Source: a virus
Reading direction: 5' to 3' (one strand)
Length of the DNA: 64,000 bases
IMG/VR virus record: IMGVR_UViG_3300045911_000155
Location: 16,561 to 80,560 of that record
The notes below the pieces were generated by a model, which had not been told where the DNA came from, searched no databases, and was given only the letters and a program-made list of their open reading frames with translations. The number at the start of each line of letters is the position of its first letter. Position 1 is the stretch's first letter. Shown piece by piece: positions 1 through 44,613 of the stretch. The position numbers were made by a program, and so were the translations under genes.

Positions 1-290
1 CCCACAGTTGGCAGTCCACGCATTTCCCGGCGCTCTTTCTCCGTGAAGGGGAGAGTCAGTTCCGCGTCTGCATCGATGCCGTGCAACACTTTCAGATCCT
101 TCGCCAATTCCATCGTCCACGTTCCCTTTAGCTGACGCGCACGCGGCTTGACCAGCACTTTCGTGACGGTCATCGGAAAATTGAGTGCTTCGCCGCCGGG
201 GAGCGGTCGTATCAGCGGCTTGGCTTTCACCGTTGTGCCCGCGATGGCACCGGCGATCATTCCGAATAGTCCGCGACGTGTGAATTTCAT
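1..290 (-). CDS. Partial ORF (runs off window): Tat-like signal peptide fused to a major-capsid (gp23)-like segment
   Basis: Manual translation from ATG at 290: MKFTRRGLFGMIAGAIAGTTVKA...VTKVLVKPRARQLKGTWTMELAKDLKVLHGIDADAEL... This aligns to IDKVTVTAKTRALKAEYTVELAQDLKALHGMDAETEL in the MCP at 43279-44613. Not in the ORF track because no stop falls in the window. Confidence 0.75.
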   Translation of the reverse strand, partial: MKFTRRGLFGMIAGAIAGTTVKAKPLIRPLPGGEALNFPMTVTKVLVKPRARQLKGTWTMELAKDLKVLHGIDADAELTLPFTEKERREMRGLPTV

Positions 291-319
291 TTGAATGCCT
301 TTGGCTGAATGAGAGAAAT

Positions 320-673
320 CTATTTGGTTTCGACCGGCACATCGGCCAGCAAGTCCAAGTACTTTTGCGGCACCATCGCCGGGTTGAGTACGATGGTCCG
401 GTTCGCAAACATCAACGTGCCTTTGCGCGCCGTCAGCGTGATCGGATGCTTCTTCGCCCATTCCGGGTCGTCATCATAGAAGCCGTCCCAATCGTCGTCC
501 ACGCCTTGCACCGTGATCCGGGCTTCGTCTTTGCGATAGGCGTTTTGTTTGATGCCGACGCGAACTACCTTGCCGATCCGAAGAGCGGCGCACCGGCCTA
601 ATGCGTGACCGTAGACGATGATCGCGCCCGGCTCAATCGGCTGTCCCATCTTGTCTTTGAGTGGTAGTTCCAT
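320..673 (-). CDS. Hypothetical phage protein
   Basis: 117 aa ORF with coding-like composition, downstream of the tRNA operon on the same strand. Confidence 0.7.
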   Translation of the reverse strand: MELPLKDKMGQPIEPGAIIVYGHALGRCAALRIGKVVRVGIKQNAYRKDEARITVQGVDDDWDGFYDDDPEWAKKHPITLTARKGTLMFANRTIVLNPAMVPQKYLDLLADVPVETK

Positions 674-693
674 TGATCCATTCTACGACGAAC

Positions 694-883
694 TGGTGGG
701 ATAGCCGGGACTTGAACCCGGACAATGTTTTAGCATTGCGACTTCAGGATACATTGGATCGGTTTGGCCGATCCCTACCCGCTTCCCTAGCGACCCTTAC
801 TCAGAGCCGGTTGGTGCATCTGGAACCCTACATCGCGCCCACGCTCCGTTTTTCGTGCGCTCTGTCCGTTGAGCTACTATCCC
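694..883 (-). ncRNA. 190-nt tRNA-like RNA with a large structured insert
   Basis: Acceptor GGGATAG/CTATCCC-A-CCA, D arm GCTC/GAGC, T arm CCGGG-TTCAAGT-CCCGG; no canonical anticodon loop and an insert of about 115 nt. Confidence 0.75.
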
Positions 884-891
884 AAATTCTT

Positions 892-980
892 TGGTGGCGG
901 AAAGGGGACTCGAACCCCTACGGTATTGCTACCACATGACTCTCATTCATGCGCGGCTACCAAGATTACGCCATTCCGCC
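892..980 (-). tRNA. tRNA-Leu(GAG)
   Basis: GGCGGAA/TTCCGCC acceptor, CATGA-ATGAGAG-TCATG anticodon arm, long variable arm, encoded CCA. Confidence 0.9.
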
Positions 981-987
981 AAAGTGT

Positions 988-1074
988 TGGTCGCGGGAGT
1001 GGGACTCGAACCCACACGACATTTCTGCCACATGCTTCTGAGACATGCGTGGCTACCAATTACACCATCCCGCG
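988..1074 (-). tRNA. tRNA-Leu(CAG)
   Basis: CATGT-CTCAGAA-GCATG anticodon arm, type II variable arm, CCA. Confidence 0.92.
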
Positions 1075-1167
1075 AAAAAAGACCAGAACTTTCATCATCC
1101 ACCGTCAAGCGGTTTGCCCGCCGCAATTGTTTTGGGCCTTGGAATTAAACCAAGCGCTCTGATCTTT

Positions 1168-1252
1168 TGGTGGCCGAAGAGAGACTTGAACTCTCACGCC
1201 CGAAGGCACCGGGTTTTGAATCCGGGGCGTCTGCCAATTCCGCCATTCGGCC
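1168..1252 (-). tRNA. tRNA-Leu(CAA)
   Basis: CCGGA-TTCAAAA-CCCGG anticodon arm, type II variable arm, CCA. Confidence 0.9.
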
Positions 1253-1352
1253 ATTTGTGGAAGCCTTTCACTTCACTTGACCATTCTGGATCGCCAGTAT
1301 GATTACCCCGCCGATGAACGTTTCACTAGTACCGTGCATCGGAACATCGATT

Positions 1353-1440
1353 TGGTAGCGGGAGTGGGACTCGAACCCACACGACATTTCTGCCACTAAT
1401 TTTTGAGACTAGCGCGGCTACCGGATTACGCCATCCCGCC
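1353..1440 (-). tRNA. tRNA-Leu(CAA), second copy
   Basis: CTAGT-CTCAAAA-ATTAG anticodon arm; variable and T arms nearly identical to the Leu(CAG) gene; CCA. Confidence 0.9.
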
Positions 1441-1444
1441 ATGT

Positions 1445-1660
1445 TCAACGATTTATCACACCCCATGAAGCTCCGCAAGGTGAAGTGGGGAAGCCGCACC
1501 CTTCGAGTTGATCCCGGACCCATTCAGCTTTCTGTTCGTTCGTCATTTTGCTGAAGTGATCTGAGTATTCTTTGCTGGTGACCAGCATCGTGATCTGAAA
1601 ACAGATATCAACCAACTTCTGTTCCCGTCCTTCAGGTGTCAGTTCCGTTCGTGCGGCCAT
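1445..1660 (-). CDS. Small hypothetical protein embedded in the tRNA operon
   Basis: MAARTELTPEGREQKLVDICFQIT... (71 aa) fills the gap between two tRNA-Leu genes. Confidence 0.7.
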   Translation of the reverse strand: MAARTELTPEGREQKLVDICFQITMLVTSKEYSDHFSKMTNEQKAEWVRDQLEGCGFPTSPCGASWGVINR

Positions 1661-1674
1661 GACCCTATTGTAGT

Positions 1675-1758
1675 TGGTGGGCGCGAAGGGATTCGAACCC
1701 TTACGCCGAAAGGCACTAGTTCCTAAGACTAGCGTGTCTGCCGTTCCACCACGCGCCC
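1675..1758 (-). tRNA. tRNA-Leu(TAG)
   Basis: CTAGT-CTTAGGA-ACTAG anticodon arm, type II, CCA. Confidence 0.92.
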
Positions 1759-1759
1759 G

Positions 1760-1837
1760 TGGTCGGATCTGATGGACGCTACCCATCTCCCATGTGTCCC
1801 CGATTTGGACACCGCGACCGCTTGTCGCTAAGACCCG
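1760..1837 (-). ncRNA. Pro-like tRNA mimic with non-canonical T loop and enlarged anticodon loop
   Basis: CGGGTCT/AGATCCG-A-CCA acceptor; GCGAC/GTCGC D stem; GTGTC-CAAATCGGG-GACAC; GATGG-GTAGCGT-CCATC in place of a TTC T loop. Confidence 0.7.
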
Positions 1838-1841
1838 TTAA

Positions 1842-1919
1842 AACCGTAAGCAAATTGAGTAGGCCACGGAATGTTTTTCAACCATAGAAAGATAACCATG
1901 ACCAGTTCGGCTTACAGTT
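1842..1919 (-). ncRNA. Y RNA-like (stem-bulge) RNA 1
   Basis: CTGTAAGC-C-GAA / TTT-GCTTACGG bulged terminal stem (GNCGAA motif); upper stem GGTCATGG/CCGTGGCC; loop starts TTATC. Confidence 0.65.
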
Positions 1920-1997
1920 TGGTCTAGGTGGCGGGAATCGAACCCGCTTGAATGTCCTGTTCCCGAAACAGGCGGCTGACCTTTAGCCCACACCTAG
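1920..1997 (-). tRNA. tRNA-Pro(CGG)
   Basis: CCTGT-TTCGGGA-ACAGG anticodon arm, C1-G72, A73, CCA. Confidence 0.88.
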
Positions 1998-2020
1998 ATG
2001 AATCGTATCACAGCAAATAG

Positions 2021-2109
2021 TGGCAACGGATAGCGGGATTTGAACCCGCAGTGGCTTTTTAGGCCGACTGTTTTTGGACAGTTGTGTTTACCATTTCACG
2101 ATAACCGTT
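2021..2109 (-). tRNA. Atypical type II tRNA-like gene (8-bp acceptor, G73, abnormal anticodon loop)
   Basis: AACGGTTA/TATCCGTT-G-CCA, GCGGG-TTCAAAT-CCCGC T arm, ACTG-TCCAAAAA-CAGT, variable arm GGC/GCC. Confidence 0.65.
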
Positions 2110-2132
2110 ATCCGTCCGGCTGTGACACGATT

Positions 2133-2209
2133 TGGTCGGGAAGGCGGGAATCGAACCCGCTCGATGTCCTGTCCCCCAGACAGGCGGCTCACCTTTAGCC
2201 CACTTCCCG
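2133..2209 (-). tRNA. tRNA-Pro(GGG)
   Basis: CCTGT-CTGGGGG-ACAGG anticodon arm, CCA. Confidence 0.9.
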
Positions 2210-2298
2210 AATGCGCGGACAAACATCGTCCGCAAAACTCGTTTCTCTCATTCAGTTGTCAAATACCAGTTGCTCTCATCGTCTGCACGATGTCGGCT

Positions 2299-2374
2299 TG
2301 GTCGGGGACACGGGACTCGAACCCGCATCTTCCTGTACCCAAAACAGGTGGCTTACCAATTAGCCAAATCCCCG
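2299..2374 (-). tRNA. tRNA-Pro(TGG)
   Basis: CCTGT-TTTGGGT-ACAGG anticodon arm, CCA. Confidence 0.9.
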
Positions 2375-2380
2375 AAAGAT

Positions 2381-2457
2381 TGGTCGGGCATGCAGGATTT
2401 GAACCTGCGACTTCACCGTCCCGAACGGTGCGCTCTACCAAGCTGAGCCAATGCCCG
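2381..2457 (-). tRNA. tRNA-Pro(CGG), second copy
   Basis: CACCG-TTCGGGA-CGGTG anticodon arm, canonical D and T arms, CCA. Confidence 0.93.
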
Positions 2458-2661: not shown

Positions 2662-2692
2662 TATTTATACAGACGTTCAGGCCCGATGTCAA
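2662..2692 (-). promoter_or_regulatory. Dual sigma70 / T4-late promoter of the tRNA operon
   Basis: TTGACA-17nt-TATAAA, with the -10 extending to the exact T4 late consensus TATAAATA; T-tract UP element upstream. Confidence 0.8.
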
Positions 2693-21038: not shown

Positions 21039-21245
21039 ATGAAGATCAAAAACCTCTTGAAAGACATTCTCGAAGGCTCCGTCCAAGTGCCGGACCAAGT
21101 GTGGAGTTTTGCATGGGACCGGGGAAACCGCCAGAACGTCCGGTTCCCCAAGGACGCATACGAAGCGATCCGGCTGAACGATGAATTTATGCTGGTCCGG
21201 GTGCCGAAGCAATCGCGCCCGGCTGAAGAGGCAAAGACCGCGTGA
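21039..21245 (+). CDS. Hypothetical protein
   Basis: TGGTATAAT extended -10 at 21015-21023. Confidence 0.7.
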   Translation: MKIKNLLKDILEGSVQVPDQVWSFAWDRGNRQNVRFPKDAYEAIRLNDEFMLVRVPKQSRPAEEAKTA

Positions 21246-21466
21246 CGCTTCAGGACGCCATCAAGCGCGGCTGGTGTCCGTATCTGTTCCGGGAAGTGGA
21301 ACGGGAGAACAAAGCAAAGCGGCGGCTAGATCCTTTGATGGGTCGAATCAGGGATTTATTGCCCGGACTGATCCATCATCAGATTGCGCCGCCGCAACCT
21401 TTGCTTGGAGAGACTTCGCGAATTTTTAGCCTTCGCGTTCGGCCTTCATCATTTCCTTCAGGCTAG
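21242..21466 (+). CDS. Small protein carrying a Gol-peptide-like copy of the major capsid protein
   Basis: LDPLMGRIRDLLPGLIHHQIAPPQPLLGETSRIFSLR versus MCP WDPIMISMVRRAMPNLVAYDICGVQPMTGPTGLIFAMR; GTGA coupling to the upstream gene. Confidence 0.65.
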   Translation: MTLQDAIKRGWCPYLFREVERENKAKRRLDPLMGRIRDLLPGLIHHQIAPPQPLLGETSRIFSLRVRPSSFPSG

Positions 21467-43278: not shown

Positions 43279-44613
43279 TTAGGTGAGGTTGATGACCTTG
43301 ACCAAGCGGTAGTACGGGTTGCTGGCGCTGATGATGTCGCCCGAAGCGTTCGTGTAGTACGGGTTCGACACAAGGCCGTAACGGGTACGGAACGCAATCT
43401 TCGGCTGGAGGGTGTTTTCACCGACCGCACGAACCATCTGGAGCGGGATGTAGGGGCAGTAGAAGAAGCCCGCGTCGTAGGCATTAGTACCTTTGTACCC
43501 TACCATTAGGAGTTCGGTATTAAGGTCGCCCGTGTTGTCGAAGTACGGATCAACGAAGACCTTGTAGCGACCGTTGATAACGCCCGCGAAGGTGTTGCCC
43601 GTGTCATCGACCGTCAGGTTGGTGTTCAACGCCGGGGCGTAGTTCAGGACACCCGCCATGTGCAACGCGGACGCAACGTCCGAAGAGCACACGATGAAGT
43701 TACCCTTACCACGACGGGTGTCACGACCGATCTGGTTCGCGTCACGCTCGACTTGGAACATCAAGCCCTTGAACTTTTCAGCCAACCAACGACCGTTGGA
43801 GTCCGTGTCAAGGTCAAACACACCAGCGTTAGCGGTGCCCTTCTGAGCGCCCGGCTTCGCGATGTAGTACAAGGTGCGAACAACTTCACGGTTGATTTCG
43901 GCCAAGATTTCCGTGGAGAGAATCGAAGCCAATTCCGTTTCGGCGTCCATACCGTGCAGGGCCTTAAGATCCTGCGCCAGTTCGACAGTGTATTCTGCCT
44001 TCAGTGCGCGGGTCTTCGCCGTGACGGTAACCTTGTCGATGAAGATCGACATTTCGTTGAACGACGGCTGGTTCGTTTCGCCAAGGACTTCACCTTGCAG
44101 CGTGGTCATACCGCGACCAGTTGCGTAACCACCGGCAAACGGGTTGCTACCGCTGTGGGCAGTACCGTTGTGACCGGCGTTCGGTGCGCCCGGCTTCTGA
44201 CCGGCGAAGTCCGTGTCGGATTCCGACATGAAGGCTTCGTTGGTCTGGTTGTAGTTGGTGGACGAAGACTGCGGGCCGTACTTCGAACGCATCGCGAAGA
44301 TGAGTCCAGTCGGACCAGTCATCGGCTGAACACCACAGATGTCGTATGCAACAAGGTTCGGCATCGCGCGACGCACCATCGAAATCATGATGGGGTCCCA
44401 CGCACCGATGTTTCCGCCGCCCATCGTGTTGCTGCCTTCCGACAACAACTGTGCCTTCTGTTCCTTCAGATCACGATATTGATTTTCGAGGATCTGAATG
44501 GTGACATCGCGACGGTGTGCATCGACCTTGCCCTGAAGATCGGTGATCTTCGGCATGTCCGTGTGATCAATGATTTTCTGCCATTTTGAGCGTAGTGCAG
44601 GTGAGAGGTTCAT
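43279..44613 (-). CDS. gp23: Major capsid protein (T4 gp23)
   Basis: MVRRAMPNLVAYDICGVQPMTGPTG, ELAQDLKALHG, FYCPYIPL, RTRYG. Confidence 0.98.
   Translation of the reverse strand: MNLSPALRSKWQKIIDHTDMPKITDLQGKVDAHRRDVTIQILENQYRDLKEQKAQLLSEGSNTMGGGNIGAWDPIMISMVRRAMPNLVAYDICGVQPMTGPTGLIFAMRSKYGPQSSSTNYNQTNEAFMSESDTDFAGQKPGAPNAGHNGTAHSGSNPFAGGYATGRGMTTLQGEVLGETNQPSFNEMSIFIDKVTVTAKTRALKAEYTVELAQDLKALHGMDAETELASILSTEILAEINREVVRTLYYIAKPGAQKGTANAGVFDLDTDSNGRWLAEKFKGLMFQVERDANQIGRDTRRGKGNFIVCSSDVASALHMAGVLNYAPALNTNLTVDDTGNTFAGVINGRYKVFVDPYFDNTGDLNTELLMVGYKGTNAYDAGFFYCPYIPLQMVRAVGENTLQPKIAFRTRYGLVSNPYYTNASGDIISASNPYYRLVKVINLT

What the first reader, a model, noticed from the sequence alone, without database searches (positions are those of the whole stretch)
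1..290. Second capsid fragment, fused to a twin-arginine export signal
Seen: an unlisted ORF starts MKFTRRGLFGMIAGAIAGTTVKA (RR motif, hydrophobic stretch, VKA cleavage-like site). It then carries VTKVLVKPRARQLKGTWTMELAKDLKVLHGIDADAEL, matching gp23 IDKVTVTAKTRALKAEYTVELAQDLKALHGMDAETEL, and similarity stops right after this motif. Inference: together with 21242-21466, the phage keeps two of the most conserved gp23 motifs as separate mini-proteins, one membrane- or export-targeted. This suggests a capsid-epitope decoy set, or tethering of capsid or sensor proteins to the membrane. The C-terminus lies outside the window.
Basis: partly seen in the sequence, partly recalled or inferred. Interest (0 to 1): 0.85.

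Follow-up and report, generated by a model that had tools for sequence, protein, structure and literature searches.

The report
Export-tagged mini-protein made from capsid piece
An uncultured T4-like phage carries a small, intact, selected gene, set inside its tRNA operon, that joins a bacterial twin-arginine (Tat) export-type leader to a copy of one of the most conserved stretches of its head-shell protein; it belongs to an undescribed family whose job is still unknown.

Summary
Observation confirmed. The ORF is on the minus strand, from window 290 off the window start. In the full record it ends two codons beyond the edge, so the protein has 98 aa and is not a gp23/gp24 paralogue. Residues 39-79 match Pfam Gp23 above its cut-off. 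As a family, the match to gp23 covers 64 columns (hhalign 99.5%), equal to T4 gp23 246-308: I-domain linker 2 (E-loop equivalent), P-domain strand, short helix and start of the spine helix. The N-terminus has the Tat hallmarks: TRRGLF, a 15-residue Gly/Ala-rich core and a basic VKA/KP end. 13 of 14 family clusters keep them.

The gene is not decaying. dN/dS is 0.19 against the syntenic copy in a 224-kb sister phage. A third relative shows 18 synonymous and 12 replacement changes. Sequence conservation begins exactly at Met1.

The gene is patchy: ten other large T4-like records have only the full gp23. The sister phage also joins a homologous leader, with a lipobox, to a portal (gp20) fragment. 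The second gp23 fragment (window 21242-21466) is conserved there too.

Function is untested. My best reading is an exported head-protein mimic used in a conflict, not a building block. The decoy or tether idea is neither shown nor excluded. This scan has noted the same architecture in at least seven other genomes. I found no paper on it.

The parts
1..290 (-). Mini-gene CDS (98 codons). Codons 1-96 lie in the window; the last 2 codons and the stop lie 9 nt beyond the window start (L001:1494-1790, minus).
   Evidence: dN/dS 0.19 against the G001 copy
222..290 (-). Tat-type leader, residues 1-23: n-region MKFTRR, Gly/Ala-rich h-region of 15 uncharged residues, c-region VKA followed by KP.
   Evidence: DNA conservation with G001 starts exactly at the ATG; modelled as a helix over residues 5-20
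168..221 (-). Pro-rich linker, residues 24-41. Its length varies across the family.
57..167 (-). gp23-derived segment, residues 42-78. It corresponds to own gp23 192-228 and T4 gp23 about 254-290: E-loop-equivalent return strand, P-domain strand and short helix.
   Evidence: domain names from PMC9546572
1..56 (-). Variable C-terminal tail, residues 79-98. It is absent in P0003 and P0004. Its last ~10 nt overlap a tRNA-like gene (L001:1429-1503, minus).
298..302 (-). Shine-Dalgarno-like AAAGG, 7 nt upstream of the ATG.
   Evidence: read from the sequence; G001 has AGGAA at similar spacing
320..673 (-). Upstream 117-aa ORF of unknown function, syntenic in G001 (93% identity, omega 0.07). It is largely missing in a third relative.
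892..2457 (-). tRNA array (Leu x5, Pro x4 and one odd tRNA) upstream on the same strand. The mini-gene lies between this array and further tRNA genes.
2662..2692 (-). Promoter-like TTGACA-17-TATAAATA ahead of the tRNA array. It fits both the sigma-70 and the T4 late-promoter consensus and is the likely source of the transcript that includes the mini-gene.
   Evidence: sequence; no promoter-like site directly upstream of the mini-gene
43279..44613 (-). The phage's full-length major capsid protein gp23 (444 aa), the homologue of the mini-gene's segment.
21242..21466 (+). Second mini-gene (74 aa) resembling gp23 motif 1 (the Gol-equivalent region). It has no Tat leader and is conserved in G001.

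Best explanation
This is an intact, expressed-type gene for a 98-aa pre-protein. It is neither a pseudogene fragment nor a capsid building block. A twin-arginine (Tat)-type leader carries a short capsid-derived module out of the cytoplasm, to the periplasm or the outer face of the inner membrane. The module is the strand and short helix that, in gp23, follow the E-loop-equivalent linker and lie at the capsomer periphery. It cannot fold alone, so it must act by binding something, as a mimic of that conserved gp23 surface or strand. The gene is accessory: it is patchy among T4-like phages, sits in the tRNA/accessory region rather than the head module, and evolves faster than gp23. The same leader is also used for a portal fragment. 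I therefore read it as one member of a modular set of export-tagged head-protein mimics used in phage-host or phage-phage conflict, such as exclusion or interference with a factor that recognises conserved head-protein segments. Shown: the gene is real, it is under purifying selection, it is homologous to a defined gp23 segment, the leader features are conserved, and the distribution is patchy. Inferred: actual Tat export, action by mimicry, and a role in conflict. Unknown: the target.
For: The gene ends 2 codons past the window. The Pfam Gp23 match is above cut-off, and hhalign of the family against gp23 gives 99.5% over 64 columns. The equivalent T4 stretch is 246-308; per PMC9546572, I-domain linker 2 takes part in inter-capsomer contacts, the P-domain short helix lies at the capsomer periphery, and the I-domain linkers contribute to the Soc binding site. 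Purifying selection: omega 0.19, dS 0.75, binomial p 2e-6; 18 synonymous and 12 non-synonymous changes against a third relative. The upstream DNA is unalignable, yet identity is near-perfect from the ATG onward. Leader hallmarks are present in 13 of 14 clusters: [ST]RRx[FL], an uncharged h-region of 11-21 residues (after the consensus +5 basic residue in P0011 and P0098), and basic residues just after it. Such a leader is rare by chance. The leader of one family member aligns to the leader of a bacterial oxidoreductase that itself carries a Tat-type RR leader. Two relatives carry a lipobox after the leader, P0054 and the G001 portal mini, which points to real export. Models show no independent fold: pTM 0.26 and 0.31, with a leader helix, an extended strand and a short helix, plus the spine helix in the second model, which is of family member P0006. 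Accessory nature: 0 of 10 other large T4-like records have a mini-gene, and tblastn against cultured phages hits only gp23. The minis sit on one side of a branch from gp23 (SH-aLRT 89), have long branches, and share Y to W and E to T/N changes. The context is a tRNA operon here and in G001, and the replication-gene region in G002. A homologous leader is fused to a gp20 fragment in G001.
Against: No dedicated Tat or signal-peptide predictor could be run, and NCBIfam and Pfam returned no Tat-signal model. Export, cleavage and location are untested, and the host and its Tat system are unknown. Capsid and portal proteins are cytoplasmic, so no periplasmic target is obvious. One member (P0009) lacks the RR pair. 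Evidence for transcription is weak: the only contig from a firmly RNA-labelled library that covers the gene is one in which DNA carry-over cannot be excluded.
Confidence: 0.45

Rival explanations
1. Membrane tether or initiator for the phage's own head assembly. The hydrophobic leader stays in the inner membrane as an anchor, and the capsid (and portal) fragments dock onto nascent gp23/gp20. They would hold the prohead initiation complex at the membrane, as gp40/gp20 do in T4.
For: Both an MCP fragment and a portal fragment carry the leader, and portal plus MCP form the initiation complex. T4 proheads assemble on the membrane (established T4 knowledge, not tested here). The retained gp23 segment is a contact element.
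Against: A Tat-type leader places the C-terminal part outside the cytoplasm. The h-region is short (13-16 residues), Gly/Ala-rich and flanked by basic residues on both sides, which suits a signal better than a stable anchor. Lipobox-bearing relatives imply periplasmic products. The gene is absent from 10 of 10 other large T4-like records, is not in the head module, and evolves fast.
Confidence: 0.15
2. Cytoplasmic decoy for a host defence that senses conserved head-protein segments. The precursor binds the sensor, and the leader either sequesters it at the Tat machinery or membrane or carries it out as a 'hitchhiker'.
For: T4-type MCPs are proven defence triggers: CmdTAC binds gp23 (PMC11618068), and Lit/Gol is established knowledge. 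The fragments are the most conserved parts of MCP and portal. The gene is patchy and accessory. Tat is the one export route that carries folded complexes (established knowledge).
Against: In the known cases, binding of the capsid segment activates the defence rather than blocking it. No sensor is known for this gp23 segment: the Gol region is T4 93-122, not 246-308. No partner has been identified.
Confidence: 0.15
3. Two-piece mini E-loop. The Tat mini-protein pairs with the leaderless Gol-like mini-protein (window 21242-21466), as their parent strands are expected from the HK97 fold to pair in gp23. The complex is then exported together by Tat hitchhiking.
For: The two parent segments flank the I domain (I-domain linkers described in PMC9546572). 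From general knowledge of the HK97 fold, not checked on a gp23 structure, they should form the two strands at the base of the E-loop equivalent. Both genes are conserved together in G000 and G001. Tat rather than Sec is strictly conserved, although the cargo is small and has no fold of its own.
Against: Co-occurrence is known from only one lineage. The Gol-like mini has no detectable homologues elsewhere and is absent from the G002 fragment, although that record is only 27% complete.
Confidence: 0.07
4. Non-functional remnant of a gp23 duplication or of a homing/recombination event, with a leader that looks Tat-like by chance.
For: The gene is short, lies in a hyperplastic tRNA region, and has a variable C-terminal tail.
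Against: omega is 0.19 with dS 0.75. The frame is intact in all three relatives for which DNA was examined. The family has 14 diverged clusters that all keep both leader and motif. The segment is no closer to the phage's own gp23 than to others: 54% amino-acid and 60% nucleotide identity.
Confidence: 0.03

Closest known systems
T4 gp23 major capsid protein and its vertex paralogue gp24 (Pfam PF07068; PDB 5VF3, 6UZC, 7VS5, 1YUE)
   Same: Clear homology over the segment equal to T4 gp23 246-308. The conserved R, L, E, D-L, H and L positions are kept.
   Different: Only about 40-64 of about 450 residues are present. There is no A domain, no I domain, no N-arm and no C-terminal P-domain strands, so it cannot form an HK97 fold or a shell. 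It carries an export leader that gp23 never has. It also shows family-specific Y to W and E to T/N changes.
Bacterial twin-arginine (Tat) signal peptides (e.g. TorA, CueO; consensus S/T-R-R-x-F-L-K)
   Same: T-R-R-G-L-F, a weakly hydrophobic Gly/Ala-rich h-region, a basic 'Sec-avoidance' c-region and a V-K-A site. The leader of family member P0054 aligns to that of a bacterial oxidoreductase carrying a Tat-type RR leader.
   Different: It is encoded by a lytic-type phage and fused to a cofactor-less, unfoldable 55-75-residue cargo. Export has not been demonstrated.
Gol peptide of T4 gp23 with the Lit protease of prophage e14
   Same: A short piece of gp23 with biological activity of its own. 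The companion mini-gene at window 21242-21466 resembles that region.
   Different: The segment in this finding is a different part of gp23 (T4 246-308, not 93-122). No Lit homologue or EF-Tu link was examined.
T4 superinfection-exclusion proteins Imm and Sp
   Same: They are small, early, envelope-located accessory proteins of T4-type phages. In G002 the mini-gene lies a few genes from the DNA polymerase gene, as imm does in T4 (from memory). Imm acts by binding a virion protein of the incoming phage (bioRxiv 10.64898/2026.03.06.709160).
   Different: There is no sequence similarity. Imm and Sp are not derived from head proteins and are not Tat substrates.
Capsid-sensing defences (CmdTAC, CapRel, Lit)
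   Same: They show that conserved MCP segments are recognised by host proteins, which gives a rationale for a mimic.
   Different: These sensors are cytoplasmic, and they are activated rather than blocked by capsid binding.

Membership tests
T4-type major capsid protein (Pfam PF07068 Gp23) | Sequence match to the family profile above the curated cut-off | tested here: met
   36.3 bits against a cut-off of 24.4, but only profile positions 135-175 of 376; hhalign 99.5% over 64 columns
T4-type major capsid protein (Pfam PF07068 Gp23) | Complete HK97 fold (N-arm, E-loop/I domain, P domain, spine helix, A domain; about 400-520 aa) able to form capsomers | tested here: not met
   98 aa in total, ending 2 codons past the window. 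No match outside the one segment. No independent fold in the models.
Tat (twin-arginine) export substrates | Twin-arginine motif close to S/T-R-R-x-F-L-K near the N-terminus | tested here: met
   T-R-R-G-L-F at residues 4-9; RR is conserved in 13 of 14 family clusters, and two have RRGFLK/R
Tat (twin-arginine) export substrates | Moderately hydrophobic h-region of about 12-20 uncharged residues, followed by a c-region with basic residue(s) and an A-x-A-type site | tested here: met
   15 uncharged residues with mean Kyte-Doolittle 1.6, then V-K-A/K-P
Tat (twin-arginine) export substrates | Recognition by a curated Tat-signal model or predictor (TIGR01409, PF10518, TatP, SignalP 6) | tested here: inconclusive
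   No hit in NCBIfam or Pfam at lax E-values, but HMMER filters drop such short models. TatP and SignalP were not available.
Tat (twin-arginine) export substrates | TatABC-dependent translocation | not testable with these tools
   Needs reporter fusions in wild-type and tat-mutant cells, with an RR to KK control
Gol peptide / Lit exclusion system | The segment corresponds to the gp23 Gol region (T4 residues about 93-122) | tested here: not met
   The segment aligns to T4 246-308 and own gp23 192-228
Bacterial lipoproteins | Lipobox [LVI][ASTVI][GAS]-C at the end of the signal | tested here: not met
   P0001 has no cysteine. A lipobox is present in P0054 (V-S-A-C) and in the G001 portal mini (T-T-G-C).
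T4 Imm / Sp superinfection exclusion proteins | Sequence homology to Imm or Sp families | tested here: not met
   Only Gp23 / PHROG 138 matched

The most novel reading that the evidence does not exclude
Uncultured T4-like phages use a modular, mobile Tat leader to send the most conserved segments of their own head proteins out of the cytoplasm. These segments are a capsid strand, the capsid Gol-like region and a portal motif. They would form an envelope-located 'head-protein mimic' set with a function that has no precedent. Examples would be sensing or blocking a factor that recognises head proteins, removing a cytoplasmic sensor by Tat hitchhiking, or coupling head-assembly state to envelope events such as lysis or exclusion.
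Probability: 0.3. Interest if true: 0.9.

Novelty: categorically new. Interest (0 to 1): 0.72.

Why it matters
Conserved head proteins are the phage parts that bacterial immunity most often recognises, and they were thought to act only in the cytoplasm. This family joins fragments of the capsid protein, and in the sister phage the portal protein, to an export leader that normally carries folded proteins or complexes across the membrane. It is conserved under purifying selection. That implies a biological use of capsid sequence outside capsid building. If the family is a mimic or decoy, it opens a new class of phage counter-measures or exclusion factors, and it offers a handle to find whatever recognises this gp23 segment. 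If it is an assembly tether, it would explain how T4-like phages without gp40 anchor proheads. Either way, simple export and plaque assays can test it.

Tried and rejected
1. Complex prediction of the mature mini-protein with the Gol-like mini-protein gave no verdict (score 0.00, controls not run). This counts neither for nor against binding.

2. I tested whether the 'Tat leader' is a diverged copy of gp23 motif 1 (MVRRxxPxLIA...). hhalign aligns only the 64-column C-terminal block and finds no N-terminal homology, so I dropped the idea.

4. Scans of viral contigs with the family alignment or with single distant members returned almost only full-length gp23 genes. Only G001 and G002 gave mini-gene loci. 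Metagenome contigs and genome contigs gave none. The two metagenome hits were the leaders of a bacterial oxidoreductase that carries a Tat-type RR leader.

5. tblastn against 50,697 cultured-phage records found gp23 only, so no cultured carrier was identified.

6. The ESM Atlas gave only clusters of gp23 fragments.

7. In the RNA-labelled runs, the gene is covered by one contig of a metatranscriptome library and partly by a short contig of a run labelled RNA-Seq but probably DNA. Contigs cannot show transcription, and DNA carry-over is possible.

8. No late-promoter box or sigma-70 site lies directly upstream of the gene.

9. Searches of the held full-text library (twin-arginine + capsid/gp23/portal; capsid decoy/mimic/fragment) found no description of such proteins.

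10. The T4 capsid paper does not discuss the conserved residues individually.

11. The word-index search for homologues of the Gol-like mini found nothing.

Full report
WHAT IS THERE. The window is G000:C1:16561-80560 of an 80.5-kb IMG/VR virus record estimated to be 47% complete. Its ATG is at window 288-290, and it runs off the window start. In the full record it ends two codons further on, so the product (P0001) is 98 aa. It therefore does not continue as a gp23/gp24 paralogue. An AAAGG Shine-Dalgarno-like element lies 7 nt upstream of the ATG.

THE CAPSID SIMILARITY IS REAL. Pfam Gp23 (PF07068) matches residues 39-79 to profile positions 135-175 at 36.3 bits, above the 24.4-bit cut-off. 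PHROG 138, major head protein, matches the same stretch. The phage's true gp23 is a 444-aa gene at window 43279-44613 on the minus strand. The mini-protein matches its residues 192-228 with 20/37 identities, E 3e-11. Nucleotide identity over that stretch is only 60%, with 16 of 37 third positions identical. This is therefore an old, diverged copy, not a recent duplication or gene conversion.

A FAMILY, NOT A ONE-OFF.
- A word-index search found three close homologues of 83-97 aa.
- An exhaustive HMMER search of 1.84 billion representatives found further small proteins that match over the whole length. P0005-P0011, P0017, P0054 and P0098 each have an N-terminal RR leader, a variable Pro-rich linker and the gp23 motif. 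In most of them the match continues into the spine helix.
- Profile-profile comparison of the 14-member alignment with 16 full gp23 sequences gives 99.5% probability over 64 columns, gp23 190-253. It finds no homology for the leader.
- Against solved structures the block equals T4 gp23 246-308.
- According to the T4 head structures (PMC9546572), the I-domain linkers are the functional equivalent of the HK97 E-loop. Linker 2 takes part in inter-capsomer contacts. The short P-domain helix lies at the capsomer periphery. The linkers contribute to the Soc binding site. The segment kept by the family is thus the return linker/strand, the P-domain strand, the short helix and, in most members, the spine helix.
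- AlphaFold models of P0001 and P0006 show a leader helix, an extended stretch and a short helix. P0006 also has a confident long helix. Neither model is globular (pTM 0.26 and 0.31).

THE LEADER.
- P0001 has T-R-R-G-L-F, then 15 uncharged Gly/Ala-rich residues (mean Kyte-Doolittle 1.6), then V-K-A followed by K-P.
- 13 of 14 clusters keep RR followed by F/L/I. P0098 and P0011 have the textbook RRGFLK/R.
- In nearly all members a basic residue follows the h-region directly. From established knowledge of Tat signals, the RR consensus, the weakly hydrophobic core and the basic 'Sec-avoidance' c-region are the three hallmarks.
- My simplified rule hits 0.27% of six-frame ORFs in the loci held. 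Two of those hits are a bacterial oxidoreductase that itself starts with a Tat-type RR leader and that surfaced because its leader resembles that of P0054.
- In the whole 80-kb record, the mini-gene is the only credible hit.
- P0054 has a lipobox (V-S-A-C) at the end of its leader.
- I could not run TatP or SignalP, and no curated Tat HMM reported a hit. Export itself remains an inference.

SELECTION AND START SITE.
- A syntenic copy lies in G001, a 224-kb record that is 96% complete.
- Between the two copies, Nei-Gojobori gives dN 0.139, dS 0.745 and omega 0.19. That is 29.8 synonymous against 23.2 non-synonymous differences, where neutrality predicts about 1:2.9 (p 2e-6).
- For comparison, the neighbouring 117-aa ORF has omega 0.07 and gp23 has omega 0.05.
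- A third relative, a 2.5-kb contig in a biofilm metatranscriptome library that encodes P0002, differs by 18 synonymous and 12 non-synonymous listed changes and one in-frame codon deletion.
- The DNA upstream of the ATG cannot be aligned between G000 and G001, while the first 30 coding nucleotides differ at one synonymous site. This fixes Met1, not Met11, as the start and shows that the leader is constrained.
- The C-terminal tail (residues 83-98) is dispensable. G001 and P0004 stop after ...ELTLP/L.
- The last bases of the window phage's CDS are conserved only because they overlap a tRNA-like gene (Rfam tRNA, 34.6 bits) that directly follows in both phages.

CONTEXT AND DISTRIBUTION.
- The gene lies inside a tRNA operon. 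Ten tRNA genes and the 117-aa ORF lie upstream on the same strand, and a tRNA-like gene and tRNA-Ile lie downstream.
- A TTGACA-17-TATAAATA element precedes the array. No promoter-like site lies directly before the gene.
- Flanking ORFs are uncharacterised.
- In G002, the lower-GC phage that encodes P0006, the gene lies among replication genes: DNA polymerase, UvsX-like protein and gp41-like helicase.
- Ten other large T4-like viral records, four of them at least 87% complete, have only the full MCP.
- tblastn of 50,697 cultured-phage records hits gp23 genes only.
- The phage's nearest cultured relatives by gp23 are below 60% identity: Pelagibacter, Methylophilales, Stenotrophomonas DLP6 and cyanophages.
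- Near-identical DNA occurs in hot-spring and microbial-mat metagenomes. The near-identical runs may be the source sample; the lower-share drinking-water, sludge, wastewater and biofilm runs may hold relatives.
- On a 56-column tree, the 14 minis and the 16 gp23s fall on opposite sides of one branch (SH-aLRT 89; not proof). The minis have much longer branches. They share Y to W (13 of 14) and the loss of the preceding Glu. This fits a single origin and a changed constraint.

THE SAME LEADER ON OTHER HEAD-PROTEIN PIECES.
- Searching the sister phage with the leader alone found a second small gene (L151:1270-1557, minus; 95 aa). Its leader is 58% identical to this one and ends in a PROSITE-type lipobox (T-T-G-C).
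- The rest of that protein matches the T4-type portal: PHROG 213 at E 0.0025 and Pfam Portal_T4 at E 0.015, which is below cut-off.
- It also matches residues 255-317 of the window phage's own 644-aa gp20 at E 4e-9. A tRNA-Met gene lies about 390 nt away.
- Notes from this scan report Tat-type leaders on capsid, Gol-like and portal fragments in at least seven other genomes. Those notes are unchecked leads. The portal case in G001 is my own confirmation of the pattern in this lineage.

HOW IT MOST LIKELY WORKS. Shown: this is a real, selected, accessory gene whose product is an export-type leader plus a non-autonomous contact element of gp23. Inferred: the leader takes the element out of the cytoplasm, where it acts by mimicry and binding. 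The choice of Tat, the route for folded proteins and complexes, for a tiny cargo is conserved across the family. That hints the cargo leaves in a bound or oligomeric state. The patchy distribution, fast evolution and non-structural context favour a conflict role over a morphogenetic one.

The rivals are set out in the Rival explanations section: a membrane tether for prohead initiation, a cytoplasmic decoy with hitchhiker removal of a sensor, a two-piece mini E-loop with the Gol-like mini, and a dead remnant. CmdTAC shows that T4 gp23 is bound by a host defence chaperone (PMC11618068). There, however, binding activates the defence, so a simple decoy model is not straightforward. The target of the mini-protein remains unknown.

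COMPARISON AND NOVELTY. The protein is related to gp23 but fails the defining feature of a capsid protein, a complete HK97 fold. It has the sequence hallmarks of Tat substrates, but export is untested. It is not the Gol segment and has no similarity to Imm or Sp. I found no paper describing Tat-tagged head-protein fragments. I rate it a new kind of phage accessory protein with unknown function.

Noticed in passing
L151:1270-1557 (minus) = G001:C1 about 35.3-35.6 kb: The sister phage encodes a 95-aa protein with a leader 58% identical to this one, ending in a lipobox (T-T-G-C). It is fused to a segment homologous to portal gp20 (window phage portal residues 255-317, E 4e-9). A tRNA-Met gene lies about 390 nt away. 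No orthologue lies in the 80-kb G000 fragment.
   Followed up: partly
window 21242-21466 (+): A 74-aa GTG-start ORF resembles gp23 motif 1 (the Gol-equivalent region; Pfam E 0.15). It is conserved in G001 (78% identity, two in-frame indels, omega 0.35) and has no Tat leader. No homologues were found by the word-index search.
   Followed up: partly
L001:1429-1503 (minus), overlapping window 1-3; L004:6261-6335 (+): Rfam tRNA hit (34.6 bits, above gathering) directly after the mini-gene in both phages. ARAGORN missed it. In the window phage it overlaps the last ~10 nt of the CDS.
   Followed up: no
window 2021-2109 (minus); L004:4078-4166: ARAGORN calls a tRNA of unknown identity with a two-base 'anticodon (aa)' inside the Pro/Leu array. 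It is conserved in the sister phage.
   Followed up: no
window 2662-2692 (minus): TTGACA-17-TATAAATA ahead of the tRNA array. One element fits both the sigma-70 and the T4 late-promoter consensus.
   Followed up: partly
L001:1791-2194 (window 291-694): In a related phage (2.5-kb contig of run X19), most of the 117-aa ORF is replaced or skipped (joints 1791>1892 and 1936>2194), while the mini-gene is kept next to the tRNA genes.
   Followed up: no
protein P0107 (87 aa): A small gp23-like ORF in which true gp23 motif 1 (MVRRxFPxLIA...QPM) is joined almost directly to motif 2, without the I domain and without a Tat leader. It may be a different kind of minimal capsid derivative or a truncated gene call.
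   Followed up: no
proteins P0126, P0168, P0143, P0166, P0171, P0200: gp23-domain proteins of 156-275 aa on contigs of 71-212 kb. They may be split, interrupted or end-truncated capsid genes.
   Followed up: no
L131:7254-8780, L132:6849-8375: A 508-aa bacterial oxidoreductase-like protein that starts with a Tat-type RR leader 65% identical over 23 residues to the leader of mini-protein P0054. This is likeness between signals, not homology of the proteins.
   Followed up: partly
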